From a virus, in IMG/VR virus record IMGVR_UViG_3300048577_000133, positions 1 through 64,000 of that record: a stretch of 64,000 nt of DNA; one strand, given 5' to 3'. The position numbers were made by a program, and so were the translations under genes. The first letter of the stretch is position 1, and every line of letters starts with the position of its first letter. The notes beneath the pieces were generated by a model, which ran no database searches, was not told the origin of the DNA, and was given only the letters and a program-made list of their open reading frames with translations. This document shows positions 20,970 through 52,299 of the stretch, in pieces.

Positions 20970-21250
20970 TAAAAAATCATATGACGTTCAATACTGCACA
21001 ACTTTTCTTCTGCGAATATTTCTTTAATTGCTGTTTTTGCCTTTCTTCTTGATGAATAACAAGACAAAATTTGTCCTTCAATTGAAAGTACTATGTAAAT
21101 ATATCTTCTCATACCGAATGTTTGTAGTCCATGATAATTAAGTATTTTGTTATTAATAAGTTTCTAAAAGAACTAAGCCATAACTTTGGCTATCTGCAAG
21201 CCCGGCTTGGTTGGGTTTTCGATTTCATTCATTCCGTTTAAAATTTAAAT

Positions 21251-21523: not shown

Positions 21524-21529
21524 ACTAAA

Positions 21530-21721
21530 TTATTTGTTATTAAATAACTTTAAACATTTTTTACAGGTTACTTTGTCAAAATCATACGTCATACGCTTTG
21601 TTTCTTCTTCCTGTTTGTCAAACCAATATCCACATTTTGTTGAGAAAAGTTCTTTTTTATTAAATTCCGGATTTTGCTCCCTGAAGAAAAACATGTTTTC
21701 TCCTTTTAAATGAACTGTCAT
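21530..21721 (-). CDS. Hypothetical small Cys-containing protein (63 aa)
   Basis: TAATG overlap with the methyltransferase stop. Confidence 0.45.
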   Translation of the reverse strand: MTVHLKGENMFFFREQNPEFNKKELFSTKCGYWFDKQEEETKRMTYDFDKVTCKKCLKLFNNK

Positions 21722-24674: not shown

Positions 24675-24904
24675 TTTTCTAACTCCTTATTATTTTTAAT
24701 TTGACTAAACCATTCAGGTATTGTTAAACCAGCCAGACCAAAAGCCAGACCGGCAATGGTATAAAGAACTATTTCGTTTATTCCTGGTTGTGTTATTGCT
24801 TTGCTTAGCATTAATAAACACCAGTAAAAGCCAAGGCGTTTTGATGAAATACTTCCCGCTCTATCTTCAACAGCAGAAGCAAGCCACTTTATTAATTTTC
24901 TCAT
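24671..24904 (-). CDS. Small two-TM membrane protein (77 aa)
   Basis: TM segments LGFYWCLLMLS and IVLYTIAGLAFGLAGL. Coupled to the lipoprotein gene. Confidence 0.5.
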   Translation of the reverse strand: MRKLIKWLASAVEDRAGSISSKRLGFYWCLLMLSKAITQPGINEIVLYTIAGLAFGLAGLTIPEWFSQIKNNKELEK

Positions 24905-24953: not shown

Positions 24954-24981
24954 AAAAAACCCGAACTATATAGTCCGGGTT
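24954..24981 (-). terminator. Rho-independent terminator
   Basis: Minus strand AACCCGGACTATATAGTTCGGGTT followed by TTTTTAGTTT. Confidence 0.75.
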
Positions 24982-25003
24982 CTGATTAACTTATACGTTA
25001 ACT

Positions 25004-25942
25004 TTACTTTGTCACTCGTTGATAGTCAAATATAATAACACGTTCTGGATTCTTTACCTCAGTAGGAGAACCCTTTCTATTACGAATCGAAAACAACAAT
25101 TTAAAAAAATCATTTGAAGGGTATTTTGTACAAAGCATTTCAATTTCTTCATCAGTAAATTTAAATTCCTTTTTCAAAATAATTCTCATTCGTTCCTGAT
25201 CTTCAGAGCTGTTAACTGGAGGAATTTCTACAACTTCATTTTGTTCTGCTTCAACAATCGATACAATCATGAATTTAACCGAAACAATATTTCGGCCCAC
25301 CTTTATAGGCTGATAGTCTATTTTGATTCCAGTCTTTTCATTTATCGTTTGTTTTGATGGTTCCAAAACACGCTTTTTAAAGTCATTGAATTCTGAATAT
25401 TTCCCTGGGTGAATCATCATTCTTGAACGAAGATCCTCAATGCTTAAAACAATAGTTTTTACCCGTTTATTCTTGATCTGACAAATTAAATCCCAAATTT
25501 CATGTACATATACGCTTTGAAATATGGAACTGCTTAAAAGCTGTTTAGTGTATTGTTTGCCATGAAGTTTGACAAAATGATTTTTTGCCATGTTGGTAAG
25601 GTAAAACCGAACACCCATGTTGTTGTGTAGAAAAACAGTCTCTCCTATCAAGCTGTCAATACTCAAACCTTCGCTGGCAATGTCAACAACCTCAATAGAT
25701 TTCATTGTTCGAAATACCTGCCTGAATTGTTCAAAATTGGTCACTGTTATACCCATAAGCTCCGATATTTCCCGAAGCTGAAAATCTATAAAATCAATAT
25801 CACTATTCAGCTTAATCTTTGTCAGGATAACATTCAAAACGTTTCGTTGGGCCGCTGTCAAATGCTTTGGACTATTTATATAATCGTTACTTTTCGCAAT
25901 GTAACGTTTTGGTTTTGGTGTGTCTAGTGTTTGTGCTTCCAT
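25004..25942 (-). CDS. Rep_3-family plasmid replication initiator
   Basis: YIAKSNDYINSPKHLTAAQRNVLNVILTKI and YSEFNDFKKRVLEPSKQTINEKTGIKIDYQPIKVGRNIVSVKF match the Rep_3 (PF01051) pattern. Iterons lie upstream. Start taken at ATG 25942. Confidence 0.85.
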   Translation of the reverse strand: MEAQTLDTPKPKRYIAKSNDYINSPKHLTAAQRNVLNVILTKIKLNSDIDFIDFQLREISELMGITVTNFEQFRQVFRTMKSIEVVDIASEGLSIDSLIGETVFLHNNMGVRFYLTNMAKNHFVKLHGKQYTKQLLSSSIFQSVYVHEIWDLICQIKNKRVKTIVLSIEDLRSRMMIHPGKYSEFNDFKKRVLEPSKQTINEKTGIKIDYQPIKVGRNIVSVKFMIVSIVEAEQNEVVEIPPVNSSEDQERMRIILKKEFKFTDEEIEMLCTKYPSNDFFKLLFSIRNRKGSPTEVKNPERVIIFDYQRVTK

Positions 25943-25996
25943 GAGTGTAATTTTAACAAATACATTTCTAATAATCAATTGTATTTTATTAACATG

Positions 25997-26024
25997 CAAC
26001 AAATATGCAATTACAATTTTGTGA
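25997..26024 (-). promoter_or_regulatory. Degenerate copy of the promoter motif upstream of rep
   Basis: caacaaatatgcaattacaattttgtga. Confidence 0.4.
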
Positions 26025-26074
26025 TTATTCTCTTTTTTCTCTTACCAATCGGGCAATTCAAAGAATTTAAATCA

Positions 26075-26341
26075 ATGTAAAGTGTCCGGCCATTTATGTA
26101 TTCTGTCCGGCTATTATTTTGTTAATTATACTTATTTATTTTATTTTGTCTTAAAAATCAACGTTTTGAGAAATAAAAAAAGATATTAACAAGTTAAAAA
26201 TCATGTAAAAATGGTGTTTATGTAGATTGTCCGGTTTCGCATGTAAAATGTCCGCTCTTCGCATGTAAAGTGTCCGGTTGTCAAATGTAATCCGTCCGGC
26301 TATTAATGTAAATTGTCCGGTTATTAATGTAAATTGTCCGG
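26075..26341. repeat. Iteron array (8 copies of ATGTAAAnTGTCCGG) flanking an AT-rich segment: putative oriV
   Basis: Copies start at 26075, 26096, 26220, 26241, 26263, 26285, 26306 and 26327 (21-22 bp phasing). AT-rich stretch at 26111-26219. Confidence 0.85.
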
Positions 26342-26447
26342 TTATGCCCTTTCAGATATTTATAAATCAATCTGTTACGACGCTGAAAATATTATAAAAT
26401 AAAAGAAAATAAGAAAAAAAAGAAATACGGAAAAACCTAAAAACATT

Positions 26448-26771
26448 TTATTTCTGGGTCTTTTTAAACCCCAAAACAGCCTTTTGTAACTCATCCTGAT
26501 CAAGTTTGTTCAAGTAGTCACTAAACGCCTTTTCTGCAATATCTTTTTCTTTTGTCCGTGTGTACCATGCCCAAGCTTCAATTATATCACCTAATTCTGA
26601 GTCCATCAGGAACGTTTTGCGGTAATATCCTTTATCTCCCTTTAGCTTTTTGTTCTCGGATTGTCTTTTAACGCCAAAACTCAAAAAAGAGGCCGTTTCT
26701 GGTTTTGTTTCTTCTGGTTGAATATTGCCGGTAATGAGACTTGATAAGCCTGAAAAGTTTTTCTTTGCCAT
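26448..26771 (-). CDS. Putative RHH centromere-binding partner of ParA (ParG-like, 107 aa)
   Basis: Immediately downstream of parA. YYRKTFLMDSELGDIIEAWAWYTRTKEKDIAEKAFSDYL resembles a ribbon-helix-helix. Confidence 0.5.
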   Translation of the reverse strand: MAKKNFSGLSSLITGNIQPEETKPETASFLSFGVKRQSENKKLKGDKGYYRKTFLMDSELGDIIEAWAWYTRTKEKDIAEKAFSDYLNKLDQDELQKAVLGFKKTQK

Positions 26772-26783
26772 TTCGCCGAATGT

Positions 26784-27554
26784 TTACACGTTTACATGAT
26801 TAATTGATTTACTTAAAACAAGGTTTACGAATTCGCTGTAATCCTTTGCCCCATTGCTTTCTGGCGCATATTCAAAAATAGATTTTTTTTGTGTTATCGC
26901 TTCGCTTATCGCAATATTCCTGCGGATCATGCTCGAAAAAACCCTGTCACCATATTGCTCTTTCAGGATATTTATAATGTCCCGGTTTAAAACTGTACCC
27001 TGGGTCATGGTTAAAAGAATCCCTGAAATGTCAATCGTACTGTCCGACATTTCCCTGATGAGAGCCAATACATCAGAAAGCTTTGCCAATCCTTTGTATG
27101 GCAGCAATTCTGCTTGCATAGGTACATAAACCTCATTCGACGCAATAAGAGCATTTAGTGTGAGAACACCAAGCGACGGCGGGCAATCAATCAAAACAAA
27201 GTCAAAACCGTCTATCTTTTGCAGGATCTTCTTCAGAACTAAATCCCTCGAAGGAATTGAATTCATTTCCGTTTCGGCCCCTGCCAGATCAATCGAACTG
27301 GGCAGGATGAAAAGATTTTCAGTTACTTTTAACGGGGTCGGGTTCTTTGCCTTCATGGTCATGTAGTGATACATGTTTTTGCCTTCAATTGTGCTGCTTT
27401 CAGAAATTTCAAGGCTATCAGTTAAGTTGGCCTGAGCATCCATATCAACCAGTAAAACTTTCTTCCCGGCATTGGCCAAACCATAACCCAGGTTAAGGGT
27501 TGTAGTTGTCTTTCCGGTACCGCCCTTGTGCTGGGCAATGCTAATTACTTTCAT
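26784..27554 (-). CDS. parA: ParA-family partition ATPase
   Basis: Deviant Walker A KGGTGKTTTTLNLG, DMDAQANLT and VLIDCPPSLG. Confidence 0.9.
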   Translation of the reverse strand: MKVISIAQHKGGTGKTTTTLNLGYGLANAGKKVLLVDMDAQANLTDSLEISESSTIEGKNMYHYMTMKAKNPTPLKVTENLFILPSSIDLAGAETEMNSIPSRDLVLKKILQKIDGFDFVLIDCPPSLGVLTLNALIASNEVYVPMQAELLPYKGLAKLSDVLALIREMSDSTIDISGILLTMTQGTVLNRDIINILKEQYGDRVFSSMIRRNIAISEAITQKKSIFEYAPESNGAKDYSEFVNLVLSKSINHVNV

Positions 27555-27581: not shown

Positions 27582-27767
27582 TTAATTAGAAATAATCCTT
27601 TCTGATAAGCATGTATTAATCCAATTTATAATTGCTTCTTTTGTTTTATCGTATCCTGCTATTCCTTCACCTTTTTGCATTATTTCAATTACATTTTTTT
27701 CGCTTTCCGTTAAATAACTAACGGTAATTCCATATATAGTATATTGATTGTTTTTTTTATTTTCCAT
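27582..27767 (-). CDS. Hypothetical protein (61 aa from ATG 27767)
   Basis: Small ORF upstream of parA. Confidence 0.4.
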   Translation of the reverse strand: MENKKNNQYTIYGITVSYLTESEKNVIEIMQKGEGIAGYDKTKEAIINWINTCLSERIISN

Positions 27768-27879
27768 TTGCTTTATAAAATTCAAAGTCGCTTTCTGATA
27801 AGTGTTCTTTCATCCATTCCTCCATCCCTATATCACGCCTTTCGTTGACATTACTTTCATTTTAGTGTGTTTCTGTGTG

Positions 27880-28461
27880 TTATTCTACTTTTATAATTTC
27901 AAGACCCTCGTAATAAAACCGTTGCACTGAACCATGTTGATCGTAAGCAATCAGAGGCTTATCATCATTAATCCATTTTCTTCTAACTGTATAAACAGTG
28001 TCGTTAAATTTGAATTTATCATTTTTATGCAATGATTCTAATGTCGTTTTACTTTCTATTTGAATAATGTTTGTAATTTCCGGTGATTGTCCTTTTCTTT
28101 CAATTCTACCTTTGCATTGATCTTCCTGTACTTGTTGAATCTTTATCGATAATTCTATATTTTGCTTTGCTTCTTTTCCGTAAAGTTCAACCGCTTTTTC
28201 AATGATAAGAGCCTGAGTTGCATAAGACATTTTTGAGTAAAACGCATCGTAAAATTCAGTATGCTTAACGGTAGCCATCCAACCACTTTGTTTACTTCTT
28301 TCCAGAGCAACTTCTTCTAGTTCTTTCCATACATGAGCAAATTCGCTACTCTGCGAGATCAAATCATGAATGTCATTCGATCTGAAGTTGTACAGAAAAA
28401 GACCTAGCGATCTTGTAATAACCAAGCTTTCTAAGTTACGTTTAATTGATTCCGACTTCAT
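27880..28461 (-). CDS. Hypothetical protein (193 aa)
   Basis: ORF preceded by a promoter motif plus an AAACAC-repeat leader. Confidence 0.5.
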   Translation of the reverse strand: MKSESIKRNLESLVITRSLGLFLYNFRSNDIHDLISQSSEFAHVWKELEEVALERSKQSGWMATVKHTEFYDAFYSKMSYATQALIIEKAVELYGKEAKQNIELSIKIQQVQEDQCKGRIERKGQSPEITNIIQIESKTTLESLHKNDKFKFNDTVYTVRRKWINDDKPLIAYDQHGSVQRFYYEGLEIIKVE

Positions 28462-28506
28462 TGTGTTTTAGTGTTTATGTGTTTCAGTGTTTACATTAAT
28501 GAAGCA

Positions 28507-28530
28507 CGAATATAAACACTATTTTTGTAA
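28507..28530 (-). promoter_or_regulatory. Extended early/middle promoter motif copy
   Basis: cgaatataaacactatttttgtaa. Confidence 0.7.
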
Positions 28531-28540
28531 AAAAAGCATA

Positions 28541-28741
28541 TCAAGCAAAATTATTTAAAAATTTTTCGCATTGATTATAATCCGCTGTGCGGCTTTTTAT
28601 ACGGTCCAAAATTATATCTTTAGTCCGGTCACTAAAACAAGTATCAAGTTGTTGTTCTAATTTTTCAATTTCACTTTTCAAAAAAATTAAACGGGTTTTA
28701 TAAAATTTTCTGTCATCATTTGTTAATTGTTCTGTTTTCAT
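28541..28741 (-). CDS. Hypothetical coiled-coil protein (66 aa)
   Basis: Small ORF in the operon. Confidence 0.45.
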   Translation of the reverse strand: MKTEQLTNDDRKFYKTRLIFLKSEIEKLEQQLDTCFSDRTKDIILDRIKSRTADYNQCEKFLNNFA

Positions 28742-29321
28742 TGTTTTGTATTTTAATAGTAAGCTTGTTTAATAATCCAACCGTATATTTTTCAAAAAAG
28801 TATTCAAAAAACACTCGACCATCTTCAATTTTTGCAATACATGGAATAGGAGTAAGACAAAAAAAACGGTTTGTATTTATATTTATAATATCAGGAATTT
28901 CTTTGTTTAAATTAAACCCATCAAATTCTAATCCACCGATATTTATTAAATCTCCAATAATTACATTTTTTCTTTTTGAAAAATGAATTCGTTTTTTCCC
29001 GTGAACATAAATTGTTGTAACATGGCTATTTATTATTTTACTTATCATTAATACATCAGAAATATGAAACACATATTCTTTTGATAAAATGTAATTTATA
29101 TCTTTTGGACCTGGATATAACCACAAAAAAATCAATTTACGATCTGGAAAGTAAATATTTATATTTGTTCTTATGTTTTGTTCAAGGCCAATATTTGAGA
29201 ATAAACCGCCTTGATAATTTTTTTTGATAACTATGTAAATAGCTTCTCTAATTTTTTTTATATCAATTATCTCAATACCAATTAAAGTACGATACTTGAT
29301 TTTTAAGTCATCTAGTGTCAT
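28716..29321 (-). CDS. Hypothetical protein (201 aa from ATG 29321)
   Basis: The track N-terminal extension runs through terminator 29362-29397, so the start was moved to MTLDDLKIKY. Confidence 0.5.
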   Translation of the reverse strand: MTLDDLKIKYRTLIGIEIIDIKKIREAIYIVIKKNYQGGLFSNIGLEQNIRTNINIYFPDRKLIFLWLYPGPKDINYILSKEYVFHISDVLMISKIINSHVTTIYVHGKKRIHFSKRKNVIIGDLINIGGLEFDGFNLNKEIPDIININTNRFFCLTPIPCIAKIEDGRVFFEYFFEKYTVGLLNKLTIKIQNNENRTINK

Positions 29322-32337: not shown

Positions 32338-32363
32338 GTCTAAATGATTTAATGATTAAGTGT

Positions 32364-32615: not shown

Positions 32616-32626
32616 TATCTAAATGT

Positions 32627-44294: not shown

Positions 44295-44831
44295 CTAAAT
44301 ATTTTGTTGCTTTAAAATTTCAACTTTTTCATATTTTTCTTTAAGTTTTGTTATTCTGCTGTCAAGTTTAGATTCGTTTGAAATTTCAAGTGTTGTTTTT
44401 ATTTTACCATTTAGCAAAAGAAACAATCGAACTCCAGAAGTTGGATTATTTCTTACAATTGGTTGTTCGGAATGAGTAAACTCTTCTGACCATTTTTTTT
44501 CTCTTGCTGCTTTCTTTTTGCGTTCTTCAAGCAATTGTTTTAGTTGTTTTTTTCGCGCAAGAACTTTTTTACCTTCCTCAATAAACCCAAAAATTGAACA
44601 CGCCTGAACCTTACGGCCCCTTTTACCAGCTTGTTTAATTCTTGTGTCCTTATTTTTTTTCTTCAGATTCAAAGATTTTAAATACTTTCTTATCGAATCT
44701 GATGTTCGTCCCATTTCAATAGATAATTCATTGAATGTTTTATCTTTATAATTAGCTCTCAAATATTCTTCTTCCAAAGAACTCCAAGGTTTATATTTAT
44801 TGATACATTCCATATTGCTAGAATAAATCAA
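44295..44831 (-). CDS. Hypothetical basic protein, possible Myb/SANT-like HTH (178 aa)
   Basis: WSSLEEEYLRANYKDKTFNELSIEMGRTSDSIRKYL. Confidence 0.5.
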   Translation of the reverse strand: MIYSSNMECINKYKPWSSLEEEYLRANYKDKTFNELSIEMGRTSDSIRKYLKSLNLKKKNKDTRIKQAGKRGRKVQACSIFGFIEEGKKVLARKKQLKQLLEERKKKAAREKKWSEEFTHSEQPIVRNNPTSGVRLFLLLNGKIKTTLEISNESKLDSRITKLKEKYEKVEILKQQNI

Positions 44832-46332
44832 TTTCTAAATTTACGCCAAATTGCTCATTAATCTCATTAAGCAATTTAGCTGTATCAATAGCAAAATCAC
44901 CAGCAATTGAAGTTACAATTTCAAATGATTCACTATTTACTTGTAATCCTTTTAGCATGAAAGCCTGTAGCGTAAATTCGAGCTCTTTAATCGTTTTATC
45001 TCCTGCATTTTTAATGTTGTGATAAACAGTATTAATACAAGCAATCCGATCATTTAATTGATCTTCATCAATTGTTGTATAATTTGGAGCTGTCATCCAA
45101 TTCCTTGCTTCTGCAATTTCAATCCTGTCAGAAAGTGGTAATGCAAGAAACAAACTGATAACGTTTGCAATTCGAAAACCTCTCGGAATACCATTAAATT
45201 CGTTAATAGTAACCTCGCGAACTACGTTTCCAAGCAAATCATTTACAAATTTTATTTTCGCTTCTTTAAGGGGTTTTGCATCAGGATTTTGTTTTTCAAT
45301 TTGTTTTTCTCCCTGTAGCAATTTAACTTCTTTGTTGTATTCATTGCGCTGATCATCAGAAAGAATATCAACATACCGGCCAACTTTGCCAAAACTGTCA
45401 ACGATCAATGCAATTGACTGCCTGGTATGATTCTTTACTGCCTCTTTGGGAATTTGAATAAATTCTGAAAGTAACCGGACGCCTTTTTCTTGCCGGTCTT
45501 TTTCAGACAACCACCTGTCAGATACTTTTATTACTTCAACACCAAGACCTTCCCAACTTTTTTTAAGGCTTTCAATGTGATTGACAACTTTAGACTGATA
45601 ACAATTTTTGTCAAAACAAATATCTGAAGCCTCATATCCTTCAAAAAGCCTGTTTGTGCTACCTGATCTTTTTGTACAATCAGTACAAGCCCCGGCACCT
45701 AAAAGCAATGATTCATCATTTACCATAAAAGGAGCATTTGCAAGTTTTAAATTAAAATGCTTTTTAATTAACTCCCTTAGTTCATTTAATGAAAATCCAT
45801 CTCCCCACATTTCAAAAAGTTCTTTTTGATCAGTTGGTGTTAATCTGATTAATTCCTTTGCGTGCGAAACCTGAAGAATTCCATCCTGTAGCTTATTTAC
45901 AAATTCAGGAATTAGCAAACTTAAATTAATACGATCGTAGACATATTTTAATGACCGCCCAATACGGTCCGATAATTCTTCAATTGTAAATCCACGATCT
46001 TTTAATTCCAGCAAAGCTTGCATTTCTTCATAGGCAGTAAGATCACGCCTCTGAATGTTTTCTGTAAGATGAATAATTGTTTCTTCATGCTCAGTAAGAT
46101 TTTCAAAAACCTTTGCATCGATCGTCTTCATTTTATTGACTACGCAGGCTCTTAATCTACGCTCTCCATACAGTAAGCGGTACTTTTTACCATCTGGAAT
46201 GATTCCAATCGGTTGGATAAGACCTACTGATTTGATACTGGCTGCAAGCTCCTGAATCGCTTCAGGGATAAATAACTTTCGAGAATTGTTAGGTACAACA
46301 ATTTCATTAATACTGATTTTCTTCAGTTCCAT
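44818..46332 (-). CDS. Large ParB-domain protein (504 aa from ATG 46332)
   Basis: ISINEIVVPNNSRK...ELAASIKSVGLIQPIGII...YRLLYGERRLRA. Confidence 0.7.
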   Translation of the reverse strand: MELKKISINEIVVPNNSRKLFIPEAIQELAASIKSVGLIQPIGIIPDGKKYRLLYGERRLRACVVNKMKTIDAKVFENLTEHEETIIHLTENIQRRDLTAYEEMQALLELKDRGFTIEELSDRIGRSLKYVYDRINLSLLIPEFVNKLQDGILQVSHAKELIRLTPTDQKELFEMWGDGFSLNELRELIKKHFNLKLANAPFMVNDESLLLGAGACTDCTKRSGSTNRLFEGYEASDICFDKNCYQSKVVNHIESLKKSWEGLGVEVIKVSDRWLSEKDRQEKGVRLLSEFIQIPKEAVKNHTRQSIALIVDSFGKVGRYVDILSDDQRNEYNKEVKLLQGEKQIEKQNPDAKPLKEAKIKFVNDLLGNVVREVTINEFNGIPRGFRIANVISLFLALPLSDRIEIAEARNWMTAPNYTTIDEDQLNDRIACINTVYHNIKNAGDKTIKELEFTLQAFMLKGLQVNSESFEIVTSIAGDFAIDTAKLLNEINEQFGVNLEIDLF

Positions 46333-46367
46333 ATTTTCCGGTTTTAGTGTAAATTTTATATTTGAAT

Positions 46368-46444
46368 ATATGTATAACATATACTGCAAAAGTGGAATAC
46401 ACGGCTAAAAGTGGAAAATATTTCCGCATTTAAGCCGCATTTAA
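46368..46444. repeat. Palindrome plus two pairs of direct repeats upstream of the ParB-like gene
   Basis: ATATGT-ATA-ACATAT (46368-46382); AAAAGTGGAA at 46388 and 46407; CCGCATTTAA at 46424 and 46435. Confidence 0.6.
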
Positions 46445-47235: not shown

Positions 47236-47709
47236 TTATATGCCATAAACCAAAAGCGCAGCATCGCGAACATGCTGACTGGTTCGTGTTTTTACTTTTG
47301 TAATACGCTCAAATGCTGTTTTATCAAGCTTAGTCATTGAACCTGATGTTGGCTTCCGCTTCACTACTTTTATCCCTGCTCTTTCACAAAAATCTATCAT
47401 CAAGTTTGATTTGTCCATCACTTTGCCAACATTGATCCCTTGTTTGGCTACTGCTCTTACTTTACCGGAATGATCTGCCTTTGTTGAATTGTAGGTGTTT
47501 TCTGGTCCAAATACGGCTTTATTTGATTCAACGTCCTCAATGTGAACTTCAAGATTAATTGTTTGGCCGCATGAAAATTGATATTTTTTTATCTGTTCAA
47601 TTGCATCCCAAAATGTCACCGTCGACAATTCGATAAAAGCTTTTTTACCTGAATGCCAAACAGCAAAACCCGTGTGTTCACCTCCATCTATCCCGATACA
47701 TATTTTCAT
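47236..47709 (-). CDS. RuvC-like Holliday junction resolvase (157 aa)
   Basis: N-terminal MKICIGIDGGEHTGFAVW is an RNase H-fold start. Sits in a recombination-gene context. Confidence 0.5.
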   Translation of the reverse strand: MKICIGIDGGEHTGFAVWHSGKKAFIELSTVTFWDAIEQIKKYQFSCGQTINLEVHIEDVESNKAVFGPENTYNSTKADHSGKVRAVAKQGINVGKVMDKSNLMIDFCERAGIKVVKRKPTSGSMTKLDKTAFERITKVKTRTSQHVRDAALLVYGI

Positions 47710-47713
47710 ATTT

Positions 47714-47737
47714 GCAAATATAATAACTATTTTTGTG
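47714..47737 (-). promoter_or_regulatory. Extended early/middle promoter motif copy
   Basis: gcaaatataataactatttttgtg. Confidence 0.7.
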
Positions 47738-47756
47738 TTTTAATAGTAATAAGAAA

Positions 47757-48461
47757 TTAAATTCGTGGATTACCTTTAAATATTATTTCGGTAAACATAC
47801 CCTTCATGCGTAGTTCTACCCGATCACCATATAGCTTGACAAAAATTCGTTTTCCAGAGGCTGGATCCGGAATGTCGTATTTATAATTTGTTGTAGCTGC
47901 TGTAATAAATCCATGTGTTTTCTTTAACATATCGCGACATGTTATAATTTCCCTAACTACATTACAATCTCCAGAATAAAATTTAACCAGGTTATTTTCA
48001 AAACCAAGATCATCCAAGCAATACAATCGCTTTGTATTACCATTTTTTAAAGCTGAATTACCTTTATCTTCATATTTACGAGCAATATCACCAGTATCCT
48101 CAATAAAAAATTGAAAACCATATTTTTTACCGTCAAATTCATAATGAAGATCGTATAATTGTGAAACCCTATTCATGATCATTAAAGCTAAAGTTTTTCC
48201 TGTTCTAGGAGCACCTCTGAGAAGTAATCCACCGTAAAGGTCTCCTGTAAATGTTTGATCTGCAAAAAAATATTTAATCAAGTCTATAAATGCTAAATGA
48301 TTATCATGATCAATTTTAAAGCCACTAACAAACATATTACCAATTTGCTCAATGCACTCTAATACTTCTTTCATGTCGTAAGGTGCTCTGAAACGTTTAA
48401 CTCTATTTCTGTTAAATACTTGTCTTAATTCATCAAGACGAGCTTTCAGACTTGTATCCAT
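47757..48461 (-). CDS. DnaC/IstB-like AAA+ helicase loader (234 aa)
   Basis: Walker A LLLRGAPRTGKTLA and Walker B YCLDDLG. Confidence 0.65.
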   Translation of the reverse strand: MDTSLKARLDELRQVFNRNRVKRFRAPYDMKEVLECIEQIGNMFVSGFKIDHDNHLAFIDLIKYFFADQTFTGDLYGGLLLRGAPRTGKTLALMIMNRVSQLYDLHYEFDGKKYGFQFFIEDTGDIARKYEDKGNSALKNGNTKRLYCLDDLGFENNLVKFYSGDCNVVREIITCRDMLKKTHGFITAATTNYKYDIPDPASGKRIFVKLYGDRVELRMKGMFTEIIFKGNPRI

Positions 48462-49498
48462 CAGTGAACAATTTCTGTAACATTAATTCCCATCTTATCT
48501 CCAGTAACCCGTTCCGGTGATTTTTTAGCGTCCTTTGAAAGTTGTGCTATTTCTGAAATTATTGCGTTGTACGAACTATTCAATATCTTGATTGATAATT
48601 TTTCAAGATACCAAGCGGGTACCGCTTCAAAAAATGTTGATAGCGCCGTCAAAATCATTTCATTGCCAGAATCAAGTTTCTTTTGCACTAAACGTGCTTT
48701 TTGTTTATTCAAAAGTTGTTCAAGCGCACCGGCATCAGCAGCAGTCCAATAATACTCTTCTCCAGTTTTAAATTTATAAAACTCGCAAAAAGCAACCTTT
48801 GCCCGGTTGTGTAAATCTGTTTTTTCTGGTTCCCTGACCGGTCTACTTTTCTTTTCTTTGGTAGTTTTCTTTTCTTTTGTTTTTTCTTCTTTTATAGAAG
48901 AGTTATTATTAATACTACTTGTTATATTATATACATTTAACATTCCTGTTAAATCTTGAATATCAGATTGTTGTGATTTAACACTTTTGTCATCATTTAA
49001 CAGTTTTGTTAAATCTTGGGTTTCAGATAGTTGTGTATTTTCTTTTGCTTTAACTGATTGATTACTACCATTTAACACACTTGTTAAATCCATTTTACAA
49101 TTCTGTTGAATGGGAGGATTCATATTTAGGCCGTATTTTGCAAAGTTTTCAAACTGGCCACCCGATAGGTTATACATCTGCAATGCTTCATCACTTACCG
49201 AATACCACAATGTCCTGTCTGTTTTTTCTGGATTAAAATTTTCAATATGTAGGACTCCCTTAGACTTCAGCTTTTCAGTTAAATTCTGTACTTGTCTTTC
49301 AGTCCAAAAAATGAAAACTTTGGTTATTCCGGCTCGGGAACTTTTTACCCAATACCGGCCAGAACGACAATTCAATCCTGATGCTGCATTGTAAAGCTGT
49401 AATTCAATTATTTTTTGAATAAATACGGCTTCATTAACCCCGTATTTTTTTGCAACAAACGGATTAAACCGTTGTTCAATGTAGAAAAGTGATTCCAT
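48461..49498 (-). CDS. Putative replication organiser / initiator-like protein
   Basis: Called only from its position upstream of the loader and an N-terminal wHTH-like region. Start at ATG 49498. Confidence 0.35.
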   Translation of the reverse strand: MESLFYIEQRFNPFVAKKYGVNEAVFIQKIIELQLYNAASGLNCRSGRYWVKSSRAGITKVFIFWTERQVQNLTEKLKSKGVLHIENFNPEKTDRTLWYSVSDEALQMYNLSGGQFENFAKYGLNMNPPIQQNCKMDLTSVLNGSNQSVKAKENTQLSETQDLTKLLNDDKSVKSQQSDIQDLTGMLNVYNITSSINNNSSIKEEKTKEKKTTKEKKSRPVREPEKTDLHNRAKVAFCEFYKFKTGEEYYWTAADAGALEQLLNKQKARLVQKKLDSGNEMILTALSTFFEAVPAWYLEKLSIKILNSSYNAIISEIAQLSKDAKKSPERVTGDKMGINVTEIVH

Positions 49499-49571
49499 AG
49501 TCTGTTTAGTGTGTGTGTTTAAGGTCAAAATTCATCGTTTTTCTGGCAATACAGACTTTATTTAGTTTTTT

Positions 49572-50042
49572 TTAAGTCATAGTATTACTTCTTACCCTTT
49601 CGCTCTTAAAAAGCCCTACACGGCTTTGAGCTACTGAAATTACCCTGCTATGTTCTTCCATGTATGATTTAAAAAAATCAGCAATGAACCTATCAATAAC
49701 CTCTGAAATCCTTTCTTCGTAGGTGTTTTGTTCCGCTGCATTTTCTCTGTCTTTACCTGTTCCGGCCAATGAATGATATTCTCCCAAATACCTATATTTC
49801 CTATAAATATATGATTCATTGGCTTTTGAAATTAAGTCGGCAGTCAATCCACCAACCCTCACAAGTAAAATTGACATCTCTGTTATAATTTGACTCAATT
49901 CGTCTGGAGAATCAATACAATCCATTATTGACTCTTTGAGCATATTTATTTTTCCTAACTCCGGTATTTTAGAAAATAAGGCTTCCAGCTTTGGCTTGGC
50001 AAGATTCGTAATACTTTGCCGAGTAATGTTCCCTTTCGACAT
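49572..50042 (-). CDS. Hypothetical protein (156 aa)
   Basis: ORF overlaps the end of the upstream nuclease by 74 nt. Confidence 0.45.
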   Translation of the reverse strand: MSKGNITRQSITNLAKPKLEALFSKIPELGKINMLKESIMDCIDSPDELSQIITEMSILLVRVGGLTADLISKANESYIYRKYRYLGEYHSLAGTGKDRENAAEQNTYEERISEVIDRFIADFFKSYMEEHSRVISVAQSRVGLFKSERVRSNTMT

Positions 50043-50685
50043 AATTTAGCAGGTGTTTGTGTTCGCAAAAACTAATCAATAACCGGCAATAGCTTCGAAT
50101 ATCACTTTCCATTGTCGGGTAACGGTAAAAGTTGTAAGGGGTATATTCCACAATCTTCCCACCCTGTTTCAAGTCTGTACATTGAAAAACATTATACTGT
50201 ACTTCGTGGACATCTGCCGTAAAAAGGTATATTCTCCATTGCAGCGAGTTTTCGTATTTAGCACGTTTATGTGGACTTCCAGTAGTTTTATGCTCGTGCA
50301 CCTTCATCCCTTCCAGCCCGTCAACACGCATATTCAGTAAAACAATGTAATCCTGAAATTCAATTGCTTTCATTGCTTCTATTTCAGAAATCATTAAAGG
50401 ATGCTCACTCCTAAATTTTAATGCTGGTTCTGCTTCTTTTAGAGTTATATAAATTGGATCCTTCATGTCATCAGACATGACAGCATATACTCCATTTTTT
50501 AAGTATATTTCACCACCATTTTCAATTAAAGAATGATAAGCTTTCCCGTACTCAAAACTTGTTTTAAATACGTCTTCACCTTTAATCTGCTTAATTAATT
50601 GCTCTTCAGATGCAAACATTTCATCATGATAGAAAGCCCTGAAGCTTTCCAGCTTCGAGGGCGATAAAGTGTAAACCGGTTTCAT
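49969..50685 (-). CDS. PD-(D/E)XK-type exonuclease-like protein (238 aa)
   Basis: RVDGLEG...VHEHKT (D...E-x-K). Pairs with a Sak4-like ATPase, as in phage recombination modules. Confidence 0.5.
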   Translation of the reverse strand: MKPVYTLSPSKLESFRAFYHDEMFASEEQLIKQIKGEDVFKTSFEYGKAYHSLIENGGEIYLKNGVYAVMSDDMKDPIYITLKEAEPALKFRSEHPLMISEIEAMKAIEFQDYIVLLNMRVDGLEGMKVHEHKTTGSPHKRAKYENSLQWRIYLFTADVHEVQYNVFQCTDLKQGGKIVEYTPYNFYRYPTMESDIRSYCRLLISFCEHKHLLNYVEREHYSAKYYESCQAKAGSLIF

Positions 50686-51941
50686 TATAGTAACCTCCTG
50701 CCGTTTTTAGGCGGCTCTGAAACTGCACCATCCATCTTTAACTCATTTTGAACCGGATTACTGCGAGTGCGGTTTGGCATTTCGTAAACGGTTACAGGGG
50801 CCTTACCGTTGTGATCAATACTTACTTTTACATTTGGATTTGGATGACTAGAATTTGATAAATCAGATTTTTTATTTTCTGACTTTAACTCAATCTCCTT
50901 ATACCCAAATTTCTTCAATTCCCGATTGTAAACAATGTTTACAGTTAAACAATGTTTTAACAAAGAACGTTTGATGTCTTCACTAAAAATCTTATTCAAT
51001 TGGTTTGCATCTTCAACAATTGCAGCCGCCTGTTCTGGAGTGGTTATTTCCTTGATAAAATCAGTATAAATGTTAATCATCTGTTTCTTTAACAATGATG
51101 TAACTTGTAACTGTATTGCAGTTGGTTCGCTCATAATATCCTGCCGAATTAATTCAAGTTCTTCAGGCTTTACGGTTCCCTCAATCGTATTTTTATAAAA
51201 AGAAATCTTTTCAAGCGTTTCAATCTGTTCAGCGCTCAAAGACATTATTTTATCCTTTGTTTTATCAATTAGCCTCTGAAAAAAATTATTGAATTCGGGA
51301 GAAGTGTATTCAGGAATAGTAATCAAACCAAATTCAGCAGTGTTTTTGCCAACGTGCTTGTCAGTGTGCGAAAACTCCAACGTCCTGCGATTGTTCTGGC
51401 TGTTCATGTAACCCATCAGGTCAGCTTGCTGAACCAGAATGTCATACGATCCACCGGTCATTTTAGGGCGATATTTTATGTCGTCGCCTTCTTTAAACTG
51501 TTCAGCATGGCAAACGAATATCAGGTTAACATTCTGGCTCCTGCACCAACCCACAAAACTGTTGAAAATATTTTTCAATGCTCCAAATCCTTGAAGCGAC
51601 AAAGAGCCGTCTGCCTTTTTATTCTTAATGTCGGTTTTCATCGCGTGTTGGGCCATAAAGTTATCCAACATCGTACCGGCTGTGTCAATGATCAACGTTC
51701 TGAACCCGTTCTTTTCGATCACACCGTCATTCTGAATACCGATCATATCAGACCAATTGTCCAACCGTGCAGCTTTACACTTGTTTTTTGCCCGGTGTAA
51801 GCCACCGTCAAAGTCAACCAGAAAACCATGTTCAACCTGCATTGCCAAACTTGTTTTACCGATACCTGGATCTCCGAAAAGTACGGTAACCAACCCGTCA
51901 ACTGTTACGGGTTCATTTTCTTCAATAATGTGAATAGCCAT
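50685..51941 (-). CDS. Sak4-like / AAA_24 RecA-fold ATPase with C-terminal extension (418 aa)
   Basis: VLFGDPGIGKTSLAMQVEHGFLVDFDGG and LIIDTAG. Confidence 0.7.
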   Translation of the reverse strand: MAIHIIEENEPVTVDGLVTVLFGDPGIGKTSLAMQVEHGFLVDFDGGLHRAKNKCKAARLDNWSDMIGIQNDGVIEKNGFRTLIIDTAGTMLDNFMAQHAMKTDIKNKKADGSLSLQGFGALKNIFNSFVGWCRSQNVNLIFVCHAEQFKEGDDIKYRPKMTGGSYDILVQQADLMGYMNSQNNRRTLEFSHTDKHVGKNTAEFGLITIPEYTSPEFNNFFQRLIDKTKDKIMSLSAEQIETLEKISFYKNTIEGTVKPEELELIRQDIMSEPTAIQLQVTSLLKKQMINIYTDFIKEITTPEQAAAIVEDANQLNKIFSEDIKRSLLKHCLTVNIVYNRELKKFGYKEIELKSENKKSDLSNSSHPNPNVKVSIDHNGKAPVTVYEMPNRTRSNPVQNELKMDGAVSEPPKNGRRLL

Positions 51942-51963
51942 TTGTGTAAAATTTTAATGTGTG

Positions 51964-52233
51964 TTATACTAATTCTGAAATTGCGTAGTCTGAAACATAA
52001 CCTGTTGCATCTGATTCATGTTTCTTAATTCTCAAAGCAACTTTTGAAAATCCAAGTTGCTTTAATAATTCAAGTTGTTCGCGTACTGCCTGAGCTTTTT
52101 GTAATAATTCGTTTTTCGAAAACATTACTGTAAAACTTAACCATCCTTCGGAAGTGTGTACTTCTGCTATTTCAAATTTTCTATTCGGGTAAAGTTTATT
52201 TACCCGCGGAAAGTTTTCAGTTTGTGTAAACAT
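51964..52233 (-). CDS. Hypothetical protein (89 aa from ATG 52233)
   Basis: The track N-terminus MKYKYSSYICR is the translated promoter motif. Confidence 0.45.
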   Translation of the reverse strand: MFTQTENFPRVNKLYPNRKFEIAEVHTSEGWLSFTVMFSKNELLQKAQAVREQLELLKQLGFSKVALRIKKHESDATGYVSDYAISELV

Positions 52234-52260
52234 GATGTAGTGTTTTAATGTTATATCTCG

Positions 52261-52284
52261 ACAAATATAACTACTATATTTGTA
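52261..52284 (-). promoter_or_regulatory. Extended early/middle promoter motif copy
   Basis: acaaatataactactatatttgta. Confidence 0.7.
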
Positions 52285-52299
52285 TTTCAAACAAAATAA

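What the first reader, a model, noticed from the sequence alone, without database searches (positions are those of the whole stretch)
25004..27554. Complete plasmid-type replicon inside a contractile-tailed phage: candidate Bacteroidota phage-plasmid
A Rep_3-type initiator, an upstream iteron/AT-rich origin, a ParA ATPase and a small RHH-like partner form a textbook theta-plasmid maintenance cassette. It sits between the terminase and head modules of a genome that also encodes baseplate, tail fibres, holin, endolysin and its own replication genes. No integrase, excisionase or host-flank sequence is visible in 64 kb. This suggests lysogeny as an extrachromosomal plasmid (P1/N15/SSU5-style), a lifestyle poorly documented for phages of Bacteroidota-like hosts.
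Basis: partly seen in the sequence, partly recalled or inferred. Interest (0 to 1): 0.75.

Follow-up and report, generated by a model that had tools for sequence, protein, structure and literature searches.

The report
Plasmid replication-partition cassette inside a phage
An uncultured tailed phage of about 72 kb, probably infecting Bacteroidota, carries a complete plasmid-style replication origin and DNA-partition system, so it probably persists in its host as a plasmid rather than integrating, a lifestyle already known elsewhere.

Summary
Window 25004-27554 (minus strand) holds a Rep_3 initiator with both winged-helix domains. Next to it are eight 21-22-nt iterons split 6+2 around an AT-rich spacer, a small RHH-like protein and a ParA ATPase with intact motifs.

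The same ParA-partner-iterons-Rep order recurs in three other metagenomic loci. Their iterons differ in the 5' half from locus to locus, so the cassette is conserved and functional, not a remnant.

ParA and its partner are closest to the pairs found on Bacteroidota plasmids. Promoter motifs, rare Shine-Dalgarno sites and relatives binned with Bacteroidota MAGs point to the same host phylum.

The rest of the window is a complete phage: terminase, portal, capsid, baseplate, fibres, holin, endolysin and a second replication module. No integrase, protelomerase or transposase was found.

The phage-plasmid reading is the best explanation (about 0.6) but is not shown. The plasmid state, circularity, centromere and repressor are untested, and about 4.5 kb of the source contig was not seen.

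The cassette sits in a hypervariable terminase-portal gap. More distant relatives lack it there, and one carries an integrase beside its terminase gene.

This is a new member of a known kind. CrAssphage already stands as a proposed Bacteroidota phage-plasmid. Interest is moderate.

The parts
25004..25942 (-). Rep_3-family replication initiator, 312 aa (WH1 + WH2). Starts at the ATG at 25942.
   Evidence: Pfam Rep3_N 2.2e-08 and Rep3_C 1.8e-20, both above their cutoffs. NCBIfam partial matches to RepM and RepE. A profile hits RepE of F and pi of R6K in the PDB. 1626 plasmid records match against 4 phage records. JGI also calls a 312-aa product.
24956..24983 (-). Intrinsic-terminator-like hairpin plus T run, 20 nt after the rep stop codon.
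   Evidence: stem of 12 pairs, loop of 4, followed by a T-rich tail.
26072..26114 (-). Two rep-proximal iterons, 21 nt apart.
26115..26202 (.). AT-rich spacer (at least 80% A+T) between the two iteron groups. Candidate DNA-unwinding element.
   Evidence: Composition in 40-nt windows. L010 has the same layout.
26217..26345 (-). Six tandem iterons, consensus aaCCGGACAaTTTACATnnn, spaced 21/21/22/22/21 nt. A degenerate extra half-copy lies at 26203-26219.
   Evidence: Arrays with the same period occur in L008, L010 and L023.
26385..26425 (-). T-rich tract with a period of about 10 nt, between the partner gene and the iterons. Candidate bent DNA.
   Evidence: TRF reports period 10 with 4.4 copies. 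Equivalent tracts occur in L008, L010 and L023.
26448..26771 (-). 107-aa ParA partner. It has a conserved N-terminal MAKKNFxG motif, a disordered linker and a C-terminal beta-alpha-alpha (RHH-like) domain plus one extra helix. Candidate centromere-binding protein.
   Evidence: 13 homologues among 1.8e9 representative proteins. Profile against the PDB: omega repressor, E 0.033. AF2 mean pLDDT 77.5, above 90 for residues 50-100. Best fold matches are Reg576, ParG and CopG. hhalign to the ORF after ParA on Tenacibaculum plasmid CP116296 gives 99.2%, 2e-19, and to B. thetaiotaomicron p5482 gives 94.9%.
26784..27554 (-). ParA/Soj-type partition ATPase, 256 aa, with no N-terminal DNA-binding domain.
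   Evidence: AAA_31 2.6e-49 and CbiA 1.2e-21. PHROG 164, 9.9e-62. It is 78-81% identical in L008 and L010. 28 of the 30 best plasmid hits are Bacteroidota plasmids.
27582..28461 (-). Two ORFs of unknown function (67 aa at 27582-27785 and 193 aa at 27880-28461). They lie upstream of parA in what looks like the same transcription unit. They are not conserved in L008 or L010.
28506..28533 (-). Bacteroidota-type promoter-like motif heading the parA unit. It is one of ten copies of TTACAAAAATAGTATTTATATTTG in the window. This copy reads TATATTCG in the -7 box.
28541..29321 (-). Two ORFs of unknown function (66 aa at 28541-28741 and about 201 aa at 28716-29321). Both travel with the cassette in L008 and L010.
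   Evidence: tblastn identities of 39-53%. Only 2 homologues among 5.8e9 proteins. The model has low confidence and gave no fold match.
44818..46389 (-). Full-length ParB-family protein, 523 aa (ParB_N + HTH_ParB), 17 kb from parA. An alternative or additional partner for ParA.
   Evidence: Pfam. TIGR00180 at 88.7 bits against a cutoff of 58.45. PHROGs ParB-like families.
47236..54408 (-). Second, phage-type replication and recombination module: a RusA-like resolvase, a DnaD-like initiator or loader (48461-49528), a Sak4-like annealase and an SNF2-type helicase.

Best explanation
**Claim.** The region is a working plasmid-type maintenance cassette carried by a phage genome of about 72 kb. It most likely lets that genome persist in a Bacteroidota host as a low-copy extrachromosomal plasmid prophage, that is, a phage-plasmid.

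**Proposed replication mechanism.**
- Rep is transcribed from its own promoter inside the origin and ends at the hairpin at 24956-24983.
- Rep monomers bind the eight 21-22-nt iterons.
- The AT-rich spacer between the 6-copy and 2-copy groups melts, and host replication proteins are recruited for theta replication.
- The two rep-proximal iterons probably also autoregulate rep.

**Proposed segregation mechanism.** ParA and the 107-aa RHH-like adaptor segregate the copies in the manner of type Ib systems such as ParF-ParG or delta-omega. The centromere has not been found.

**Lytic growth.** This is expected to use the separate DnaD-like, helicase, Sak4, SSB and RusA module at 42-54 kb.

**Shown.**
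- The identity and integrity of Rep, the iterons and ParA.
- Homology of the ParA-partner pair to pairs on Bacteroidota plasmids.
- Conservation of the cassette in four loci.
- The full phage gene complement.
- No integrase in what could be seen.

**Inferred.** The plasmid state, division of labour between the two replication modules, the RHH fold and its DNA binding, and the host.
For: **Rep and origin.**
- Both Rep domains score above their Pfam cutoffs.
- The Rep profile hits RepE and pi, the classic iteron-binding initiators.
- The eight iterons have two-helical-turn spacing and occur only here.

**Conservation.**
- L008, L010/L013 and L023 share the order ParA-partner-iterons-Rep. ParA is 78-81% identical and Rep about 60% identical in L008 and L010.
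- The iteron 3' half (TTTACAT) is conserved. The 5' half is specific to each locus (CCGGACA, GTGTACC, AAGTACT, ACGGACA). This is as expected if each Rep co-evolves with its own sites.

**Plasmid affinity.**
- Rep matches 1626 plasmid records but only 4 phage records. Two of those four are Clostridioides difficile phages, phiSemix9P1 and HGP05, which I recall being described as extrachromosomal.
- The best ParA matches are Bacteroides, Phocaeicola, Parabacteroides and Tenacibaculum plasmids.
- In those plasmids ParA is followed by a small ORF that is homologous to the 107-aa partner.

**Phage context.**
- A second, phage-type replication module exists.
- No integrase, protelomerase or transposase was found among the window's ORFs.
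- The source contig is 71,820 bp, and many portal relatives sit on contigs of 69-71 kb. The contig is therefore about one genome long with no room for host flanks.
- The relative L018 carries a tyrosine integrase next to TerL and has no rep/par within 10 kb of its portal. Persistence modules therefore vary within this phage family.
Against: - No direct evidence exists for an extrachromosomal state, circularity or copy number.
- No CI-type repressor or divergent immunity region was recognised. Nearly all genes lie on one strand, as in many virulent phages.
- The parA unit is headed by the same conserved promoter type as nine other units, including those upstream of the terminase and lysis gene regions. 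Nothing marks it as a prophage-state transcript.
- No toxin-antitoxin module or multimer resolvase was found.
- No centromere was identified, and canonical parS is absent.
- More distant relatives of the phage (L015, L021, L022 and the MAG loci) show no rep/par near the portal and no visible lysogeny module.
- About 4.5 kb of the contig was not seen.
- GC skew shows no inflection at the origin.
Confidence: 0.6

Rival explanations
1. The phage is essentially virulent, or at most forms a carrier state. Under this reading Rep_3 and its iterons act as an early or theta-phase origin during productive infection. ParA and its partner would position or protect replicating phage DNA, or support transient pseudolysogeny, rather than maintain a stable plasmid prophage.
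For: - Genes are co-oriented throughout and no repressor or immunity region was recognised.
- The parA unit uses the same conserved promoter type as the other nine units.
- Most family relatives have no visible lysogeny module near the portal.
- No addiction module or resolvase was found.
Against: - The window already has a separate phage-type replication module.
- Iteron-controlled Rep_3 replicons limit copy number, which does not suit lytic amplification (established knowledge of RepE, pi and RepA).
- ParA and its partner are homologous to plasmid partition pairs.
- The whole cassette is conserved with co-varying iterons.
- This lineage has the cassette, while the relative L018 has an integrase next to its terminase gene and no rep/par within 10 kb of its portal.
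Confidence: 0.22
2. The phage is an integrating temperate phage whose integrase and attP lie in the part of the contig not seen. Under this reading the rep-par cassette is accessory cargo.
For: - About 4.5 kb of the 71,820-bp contig could not be retrieved.
- A relative, L018, does carry a tyrosine integrase.
- A tRNA-like sequence at 34140-34228 could in principle mark an attP.
Against: - In relatives, the 220-aa neck or tail gene is followed by a sheath gene of 533-648 aa, a gp19-like tube gene and further tail genes. None of these is in the window or in L003.
- Those genes, the rest of the Big_2 protein and the start of the tape-measure gene are expected to fill the unseen 4.5 kb.
- In L018 the integrase lies next to TerL. 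The window has an unrelated 321-aa ORF at that position.
- No integrase was found anywhere in the 64 kb.
Confidence: 0.07
3. The cassette is a passenger. Under this reading it is a plasmid fragment captured in the hypervariable terminase-portal gap, with no role in the phage's own maintenance. It would be either decaying or serving something else, such as incompatibility against resident plasmids.
For: - The gap varies from 0 to 24 kb between relatives. It is filled with methyltransferases, HNH endonucleases and other cargo.
- The cassette is restricted to one subclade.
Against: - All ORFs are intact in four independent loci, with 60-81% protein identity.
- Iteron arrays of 8-11 copies are retained, and their sequence has diverged together with Rep.
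- Two further genes are co-inherited with the cassette.
- No obvious flanking inverted or direct repeats and no transposase were seen.
Confidence: 0.06

Closest known systems
Iteron-controlled theta replicons of the Rep_3 family (RepE/oriS of F, pi/gamma-ori of R6K, RepA of pPS10, RepM/RepB of Acinetobacter plasmids)
   Same: The initiator has two winged-helix domains. Tandem iterons of about 22 bp lie directly upstream of rep, next to an AT-rich stretch, with extra rep-proximal repeats. The Rep profile hits RepE and pi.
   Different: Identity to any plasmid Rep is only about 25%. No DnaA box was found in the origin: no site within 1 mismatch of TTATCCACA. The replicon resides in a phage genome. 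Only 8 relatives were found among 5.8e9 proteins.
Type Ib partition systems with an RHH adaptor (ParF-ParG of TP228, delta-omega of pSM19035), and the uncharacterised ParA + small-ORF pairs of Bacteroidota plasmids (p5482 of B. thetaiotaomicron, Tenacibaculum finnmarkense plasmid CP116296)
   Same: A small ParA with a deviant Walker A motif and no DNA-binding N-terminus. It is followed by an adaptor of about 100 aa with a basic flexible N-terminus and a beta-alpha-alpha C-terminal domain. The adaptor is homologous to the Bacteroidota plasmid ORFs.
   Different: The link to omega and ParG is only marginal (E 0.033, with non-significant fold scores). No centromere repeats were found upstream of parA. 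The Bacteroidota plasmid pairs have, to my knowledge, not been studied experimentally.
Phage-plasmids P1, N15 and SSU5 (Pfeifer et al. 2021, PMC7969092)
   Same: A complete tailed-phage gene set plus a plasmid replicon and a partition system, and no integrase. As in P1, two separate replication modules are present.
   Different: There is no sequence relationship to any deposited phage or plasmid backbone. There is no protelomerase as in N15, no Cre-like resolvase and no addiction module as in P1. The plasmid state is not demonstrated.
Carjivirus communis (prototypic crAssphage), proposed as a phage-plasmid of Phocaeicola vulgatus (PMC10983915)
   Same: A Bacteroidota phage without an integrase that carries plasmid-type replication genes. 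One window protein (40040-40735) has a crAss001_48-related domain.
   Different: CrAssphage is a podovirus-like crassvirus with two RepL genes and a toxin-antitoxin system. A ParA partition system is mentioned in that paper only for P1, in the passages I read. Here the backbone is an unrelated baseplate-bearing phage with Rep_3 iterons and ParA.
Actinobacteriophages with parABS in place of an integration cassette (from my own recollection of Dedrick et al. 2016, not read here)
   Same: Within one phage family, some members have an integrase and others a partition system. The viral fold search lists the small ParB-like proteins of a Gordonia phage and a Mycobacterium phage among its top, non-significant matches.
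   Different: To my recollection those phages carry no dedicated plasmid Rep or iteron origin. In them the partition cassette replaces the integrase at the same locus. Here the L018 integrase lies upstream of TerL, while the cassette lies downstream of it.

Membership tests
Rep_3 iteron-binding initiators (PF01051 + PF21205) | N-terminal WH1 domain | tested here: met
   Rep3_N scores 35 bits against a cutoff of 22.4, over residues 35-174 of the 332-aa ORF.
Rep_3 iteron-binding initiators (PF01051 + PF21205) | C-terminal WH2 domain | tested here: met
   Rep3_C scores 73.3 bits against a cutoff of 21.1. The profile hits RepE and pi over this region.
Rep_3 iteron-binding initiators (PF01051 + PF21205) | Tandem direct repeats (iterons) of about 17-22 bp next to rep, with an AT-rich region | tested here: met
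   Eight copies with a 21-22-nt period and a spacer of at least 80% A+T. The layout is conserved in three other loci.
Rep_3 iteron-binding initiators (PF01051 + PF21205) | DnaA box in the origin (present in many members, not all) | tested here: not met
   No site within 1 mismatch of TTATCCACA in 25943-26448.
Rep_3 iteron-binding initiators (PF01051 + PF21205) | Rep-dependent autonomous replication of the cloned origin | not testable with these tools
   Needs cloning into a Bacteroidota host.
Type Ib ParA / RHH-adaptor partition system | ParA with the deviant Walker A motif KGGxxK[ST], about 200-260 aa, and no N-terminal HTH | tested here: met
   256 aa, with HKGGTGKT at residues 9-16. AAA_31 covers residues 1-175 from the first residue.
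Type Ib ParA / RHH-adaptor partition system | Small adaptor gene immediately downstream, with a ribbon-helix-helix fold | tested here: inconclusive
   Adjacency is met and conserved. For the fold: omega repressor at E 0.033; the model shows an extended segment followed by two helices with pLDDT above 90; the Foldseek top hits Reg576, ParG and CopG have E around 1.
Type Ib ParA / RHH-adaptor partition system | Centromere of short repeats, usually upstream of parA | tested here: not met
   The AAACAC 8-nt repeats upstream turned out to be generic leaders that sit before many genes, here and in L008. No other repeat family was found near parA.
Phage-plasmid (operational definition of Pfeifer et al. 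2021, PMC7969092) | Core phage functions: packaging, head, tail and lysis | tested here: met
   TerL, portal, protease, major head protein, neck, baseplate, fibre, holin and endolysin.
Phage-plasmid (operational definition of Pfeifer et al. 2021, PMC7969092) | Plasmid replication and/or partition genes | tested here: met
   Rep_3 and ParA.
Phage-plasmid (operational definition of Pfeifer et al. 2021, PMC7969092) | Extrachromosomal maintenance in the lysogen, with no integration | not testable with these tools
   There is only negative evidence. No integrase was found in the 64 kb, and none was recorded for the genes in the 3.3 kb of L003. About 4.5 kb is unseen, and no reads were available.
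N15-type linear plasmid prophages | Protelomerase (TelN) and a telomere site | tested here: not met
   No protelomerase family appeared in any PHROGs or Pfam scan.
P1 / SSU5 phage-plasmid groups | Shared backbone genes with the group | tested here: not met
   No megablast match to any deposited phage. The best TerL and portal matches are at most 30% identical, in unrelated phages. There are no close plasmid records.

The most novel reading that the evidence does not exclude
A family of Bacteroidota baseplate-bearing phages that otherwise look virulent has one young subclade that captured a rep-par cassette from a Bacteroidota plasmid. The cassette landed in the hypervariable terminase-portal gap and turned that subclade into phage-plasmids. 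A sister lineage instead took up an integrase. If so, this is a natural, datable example of a phage becoming a phage-plasmid by gaining a single module. It would also provide a compact 2.6-kb replicon with a partition system that could serve as a vector for environmental Bacteroidota.
Probability: 0.3. Interest if true: 0.6.

Novelty: new member of a known kind. Interest (0 to 1): 0.45.

Why it matters
- **Gap in current surveys.** Phage-plasmids are common in Proteobacteria and Firmicutes. The main survey states that its detection probably under-counts them in Bacteroides and other less-studied clades (PMC7969092).
- **A second Bacteroidota type.** If the plasmid state is confirmed, this element would add a Bacteroidota phage-plasmid unrelated to crAssphage. 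It would have a classical iteron replicon and a ParA system.
- **Evolutionary angle.** It would show that persistence modules (rep-par, an integrase, or none) differ between members of one phage family.
- **Practical use.** The 2.6-kb rep-ori-par unit is a candidate stable low-copy vector for Flavobacteriia- or Cytophagia-like hosts, which have few genetic tools.
- **Limit.** As it stands this is a well-supported annotation, not a demonstrated lifestyle.

Tried and rejected
**1. Retrieving the rest of the 71,820-bp source contig.** Exact-protein look-ups returned only short contigs from two other JGI samples. Scans of viral contigs and metagenome contigs did not find it, including a chimeric query built from both window ends plus Rep. 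Only L003 extends the window, by 3.3 kb.

**2. AAACAC 8-nt tandem repeats as the centromere** (28462-28493, 33200-33230). Rejected. They lie directly before many start codons in the window and in L008, so they are generic leaders.

**3. Canonical parS for the 523-aa ParB.** No match with up to 3 mismatches.

**4. GC skew as an origin marker.** The cumulative skew falls monotonically because all genes are on one strand, so it is uninformative.

**5. Rep relatives in reference collections.** None were found in GTDB genomes or IMG/VR. The metagenome scan gave only L013, which is the same contig as L010, and a 1.3-kb fragment.

**6. The conserved 201-aa neighbour (28716-29321).** It has only two homologues. 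The model is of low confidence, with mean pLDDT 55.6. There was no meaningful fold match.

**7. The 321-aa ORF upstream of TerL as a divergent recombinase.** It shows no similarity to the L018 integrase and has no family hit.

**8. The Big_2 protein at the window start as a sheath.** It shows no similarity to the sheath-position protein of L015. It is a Polysacc_deac_3 + Big_2 protein.

**9. Addiction or defence genes near the cassette.** PADLOC found none. Only the AAA_15 ATPase at 42846-44204 has weak AriA/PtuA-like hits.


Full report
**1. What is in the stated interval**

Nearly every gene in the window is on the minus strand. Reading that strand from 27554 down to 25004 gives the following parts.

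- **parA (26784-27554).** It encodes 256 aa and matches AAA_31 at 2.6e-49, CbiA at 1.2e-21 and PHROG 164 'ParA-like partition protein' at 9.9e-62. The deviant Walker A motif KGGTGKT sits at residues 10-16. The Pfam domain starts at residue 1, so there is no N-terminal DNA-binding extension.
- **A 107-aa ORF (26448-26771),** which begins 13 nt after parA ends.
- **A 505-nt non-coding stretch.** In order, it holds a T-rich tract with a period of about 10 nt (26385-26425), six tandem iterons (26217-26345, spaced 21/21/22/22/21 nt), an AT-rich spacer of at least 80% A+T (about 26115-26202) and two more iterons (26072-26114).
- **rep (25004-25942).** It encodes 312 aa and carries both domains of the Rep_3 family above Pfam's cutoffs: Rep3_N at 35 bits and Rep3_C at 73.3 bits.
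- **A terminator-like hairpin (24956-24983),** which follows rep.

The iteron consensus CCGGACAnTTTACAT occurs eight times here with up to 2 mismatches, always on the minus strand, and only twice elsewhere in 64 kb. No shuffle reached the observed count. A profile built from Rep and its relatives hits RepE of F and pi of R6K, the textbook iteron-binding initiators.

**2. The small partner**

It matches no curated family. An exhaustive HMMER search of 1.8 billion representative proteins found 13 relatives. These share a conserved N-terminal MAKKNFxGGLxSL motif, a variable low-complexity linker and a conserved C-terminal block, RKTFxxDxELxExIxAWAWYxR...EKDIxxxAFxxY. That block reads as strand-helix-helix.

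- A profile of the family has the omega repressor of pSM19035 as its best PDB sequence match (E 0.033). Omega is the RHH adaptor of a type Ib partition system.
- The AlphaFold model has pLDDT above 90 over residues 50-100. It shows an extended segment followed by helices.
- The best fold matches are the RHH proteins Reg576, ParG and CopG, but with E around 1.
- In the viral structure library, small 'ParB-like partitioning proteins' of actinobacteriophages and other RHH proteins appear among the best matches. These are also non-significant.

The strongest evidence is comparative. On real Bacteroidota plasmids the closest ParA genes are followed by a small ORF, and that ORF is homologous to this protein. 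hhalign gives 99.2% (E 2e-19) for Tenacibaculum finnmarkense plasmid CP116296 and 94.9% for B. thetaiotaomicron p5482. 'RHH-like partner' is therefore reasonable. Formally, though, the fold assignment remains inconclusive.

**3. Is the cassette functional and conserved?**

Rep has only eight relatives among 5.8 billion proteins. Three of them could be placed in their genomic context:

- L008, a 33-kb Logan contig;
- L010 (the same contig as L013), 6.4 kb, from GCA_900118445.1;
- L023, 4.8 kb, from a sediment metagenome.

All three have the order ParA, 107-110-aa partner, non-coding region, Rep. In L008 and L010, ParA is 78-81% identical, the partner 53-60% and Rep about 60%. The L008 rep reading frame is intact.

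Each non-coding region holds 8-11 iterons with the same 21-22-nt period. The 3' half (TTTACAT) is conserved. The 5' half is specific to each locus: CCGGACA here, GTGTACC in L008, AAGTACT in L010 and ACGGACA in L023. L010 also repeats the layout of six iterons, an AT-rich stretch and two more iterons. This is what one expects of an initiator co-evolving with its own binding sites. It argues against a decaying remnant.

Two further ORFs of unknown function travel with the cassette in L008 and L010: 28541-28741 and 28716-29321.

**4. The surrounding genome**

PHROGs and Pfam scans of all ORFs of 140 aa or more gave this map on the gene strand:

- tail protein, baseplate V, gp25/W-like and J-like proteins (59852-63986);
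- tail fibre (56983-58266);
- holin (55469-56017) and endolysin (54865-55467);
- a replication and recombination module: SNF2-type helicase 52300-54408, Sak4 50685-51941, DnaD-like initiator or loader 48461-49528 and RusA-like resolvase 47236-47709;
- a full-length ParB (44818-46389; TIGR00180 at 88.7 bits against a cutoff of 58.45) and SSB (42013-42435);
- TerL (36731-38383);
- a 24-kb stretch of accessory genes: three DNA methyltransferases, the rep-par cassette, three HNH endonucleases, a second helicase, and a PAPS-reductase-like gene paired with a ParB-like gene;
- portal (10438-12834), protease or scaffold, major head protein (5238-6533) and tail completion protein (3402-3890);
- a protein of at least 917 aa with Polysacc_deac_3 and Big_2 domains, which runs off the window start.

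Beyond the window end, L003 adds three ORFs of 384, 110 and 160 aa, plus a tape-measure-like ORF whose sequence has that character. No sheath or tube gene is in the window. In relatives they follow the 216-220-aa gene that precedes the Big_2 protein here. 'Contractile-tailed' is therefore likely but lies outside what I could read.

No integrase, protelomerase, transposase or excisionase-type family appeared in any scan.

**5. Completeness and host flanks**

The exact Rep and portal proteins are recorded on a JGI contig of 71,820 bp. Portal relatives sit on many contigs of 69-71 kb. The contig is therefore about one genome long, and phage genes reach both window ends.

Of the 7.8 kb outside the window, L003 covers 3.3 kb. 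The remaining 4.5 kb or so must hold the end of the Big_2 gene, sheath, tube, chaperone genes and the start of the tape-measure gene. That leaves little room for an integrase. This is an inference, not a reading.

**6. Host**

Six lines point to Bacteroidota.

- Of the 30 best plasmid matches to ParA, 28 are Bacteroides, Phocaeicola, Parabacteroides or Tenacibaculum plasmids. The partner protein has homologues on the two of these plasmids that I checked.
- Ten copies of a conserved motif, TTACAAAAATAGTATTTATATTTG, lie 20-45 nt upstream of start codons. Its 3' end is TAnnTTTG. Several copies have TTTG 18-19 nt upstream. From my own knowledge, this is the -7/-33 consensus of Bacteroidota sigma-A promoters.
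- Only 13 of 76 genes have a Shine-Dalgarno-like core, as is typical of that phylum.
- The closest portal relatives in GTDB genomes are in MAGs named Flavobacteriales, Cyclobacteriaceae, Flavobacterium, Crocinitomicaceae and Raineya. One small contig was binned as Pseudomonadota.
- A crAss001_48-related domain is present.
- A DUF805b RNA motif is present, but I could not verify its taxonomic range.

None of these is direct host linkage.

**7. How the cassette relates to the phage family**

The gap between TerL and portal varies widely between relatives:

| Locus | Gap between TerL and portal |
|---|---|
| L015/L016 | essentially 0 kb |
| L018 | about 4 kb |
| L021 | about 5 kb |
| L022 | about 8 kb |
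| L008 | about 13 kb |
| window | 24 kb |

The contents differ from locus to locus: methyltransferases, radical-SAM genes and homing endonucleases. Only the window and L008 carry rep-par in this gap. L010 and L023 are too short to show where their cassettes lie.

L018 has a TerL 50% identical and a portal 44% identical to those in the window. It carries a tyrosine recombinase immediately upstream of TerL, and no rep/par within 10 kb of its portal. None of 23 further relatives in genomes shows Rep, ParA or the partner within 10 kb of the portal.

The cassette is therefore cargo acquired by one subclade in a recombination hot spot. I saw no obvious flanking repeats, though I did not search specifically for mobile-element ends.

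**8. Most likely mechanism and its rivals**

The best reading is a phage-plasmid (confidence about 0.6). Rep and the iterons would provide copy-controlled theta replication, ParA and its partner would provide segregation, and the DnaD-like, helicase, Sak4, SSB and RusA module would serve lytic growth. This parallels the two-origin logic of P1.

Weaknesses:
- No repressor or immunity region was recognised.
- Nearly all genes are on one strand.
- The parA unit has the same promoter type as the units upstream of the terminase and lysis gene regions. Its -7 box does read TATATTCG rather than TTTG.
- There is no addiction module, resolvase or centromere.
- Nothing is known about the physical state of the DNA.

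The main rival (about 0.22) is a virulent or carrier-state phage that uses Rep_3 as an extra origin. Against it, iteron replicons limit copy number, and partition ATPases have no known role in lytic growth. An unseen integrase (about 0.07) and a functionless passenger (about 0.06) are less likely.

The adaptor for ParA could also be the distant 523-aa ParB rather than the adjacent 107-aa protein, or in addition to it. The conserved adjacency, and the same pairing on Bacteroidota plasmids, favour the adjacent protein.

**9. Comparison with what is known**

- **As a replicon,** it meets the Rep_3 and iteron criteria except for a DnaA box.
- **As a partition system,** it works like type Ib. Two defining points remain open: the RHH fold is not statistically secured, and the centromere has not been found.
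- **As a phage-plasmid,** it meets the gene-content criteria of Pfeifer et al. (PMC7969092). It is unrelated to the P1, N15 or SSU5 backbones.
- **Within Bacteroidota,** the prototypic crAssphage has already been proposed and cultured as a phage-plasmid (PMC10983915). In that paper it is described with two RepL genes and a toxin-antitoxin system. In the passages I read, a ParA partition system is mentioned only for P1. The 2021 survey had flagged crAssphage as a singleton and warned of under-detection in Bacteroides.

**10. Verdict**

This is a new member of a known kind. It is a clean, well-conserved rep-ori-par cassette in an uncultured Bacteroidota phage lineage, with an interesting evolutionary setting in a variable gap, next to relatives that carry an integrase or no visible persistence module. 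I score interest at 0.45. A phage specialist would find it plausible and useful rather than surprising, and the decisive evidence (reads, or cloning) is outside what these tools can give.

Noticed in passing
window 15863, 18927, 23517, 28506, 33235, 36680, 44242, 47712, 52261, 54694 (minus strand, about 28 nt each): Ten copies of a conserved motif, TTACAAAAATAGTATTTATATTTG, lie 20-45 nt upstream of start codons. The 3' end fits the Bacteroidota -7 box TAnnTTTG, and several copies have TTTG 18-19 nt upstream. The conserved spacer suggests a shared operator for a phage regulator.
   Followed up: partly
window 28462-28493, 32913-32935, 33200-33230, 44220-44257; also L008 3175-3193, 7761-7796, 11461-11482, 18192-18214, 18483-18513: Tandem 8-nt (T/G/A)AAACAC repeats lie immediately before start codons of many genes in this phage and in its relative. 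They may be unstructured CA-rich leaders that replace Shine-Dalgarno sites. TAAACAC occurs 26 times against 13.8 expected.
   Followed up: partly
window 2-2752 (minus strand), with tandem repeats at 36-740: An ORF of at least 917 aa runs off the window start. It combines a Polysacc_deac_3 domain with at least four Big_2 domains, which are encoded by a 258-nt tandem repeat. It occupies the position where relatives have the sheath gene, and may be a virion-borne polysaccharide-modifying enzyme.
   Followed up: partly
window 9624-10235, 13847-14356, 44818-46389: Three further proteins carry a ParB_N domain. One lies between the portal and head genes. One is paired with a PAPS-reductase-like gene (14353-15636). 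One is a full-length 523-aa ParB with an HTH domain. No canonical parS site is present.
   Followed up: partly
window 34140-34228 (minus strand): Rfam finds a tRNA (41.4 bits) with a 33-nt insert in the anticodon region, which ARAGORN did not call. It overlaps a 69-aa ORF. It may be an intron-containing or degenerate tRNA.
   Followed up: no
window 13687-13721 (minus strand): A full-length match to the Rfam cis-regulatory motif DUF805b (47.7 bits against a gathering score of 35.6). It lies between the regulator-like ORF at 12943-13494 and the ParB-like gene at 13847-14356.
   Followed up: no
window 19408-23472 and 30751-35114: The terminase-portal gap is dense with DNA-modification and homing genes. 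It holds a 583-aa C5-cytosine methyltransferase, two other methyltransferases (528 and 260 aa) and three HNH/NUMOD4 endonucleases.
   Followed up: no
window 42846-44204: A 452-aa AAA_15/SMC-like ATPase has weak similarity to the defence ATPases AriA, PtuA and GajA (best E 4e-09). It lies inside the replication module.
   Followed up: no
window 24102-24904: Directly downstream of rep lie a 77-aa membrane protein and a 190-aa predicted lipoprotein. The lipoprotein has a signal peptide with a Cys, a K/E/S/T-rich low-complexity body and a C-terminal transmembrane helix. These are candidates for prophage-expressed surface or exclusion functions.
   Followed up: no
L016/L028 (PAJI01000013.1, 172,468 bp, Crocinitomicaceae MAG) and L015 (TARA scaffold, 71,529 bp): The same distant relative of this phage appears both on a scaffold of about one genome length and inside a 172-kb MAG contig. 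It may therefore be integrated, or the contig may be a concatemeric assembly.
   Followed up: no
L018 3353-4159: A relative with 50% TerL identity carries a 268-aa tyrosine recombinase directly upstream of TerL. The window has an unrelated 321-aa ORF at that position.
   Followed up: partly
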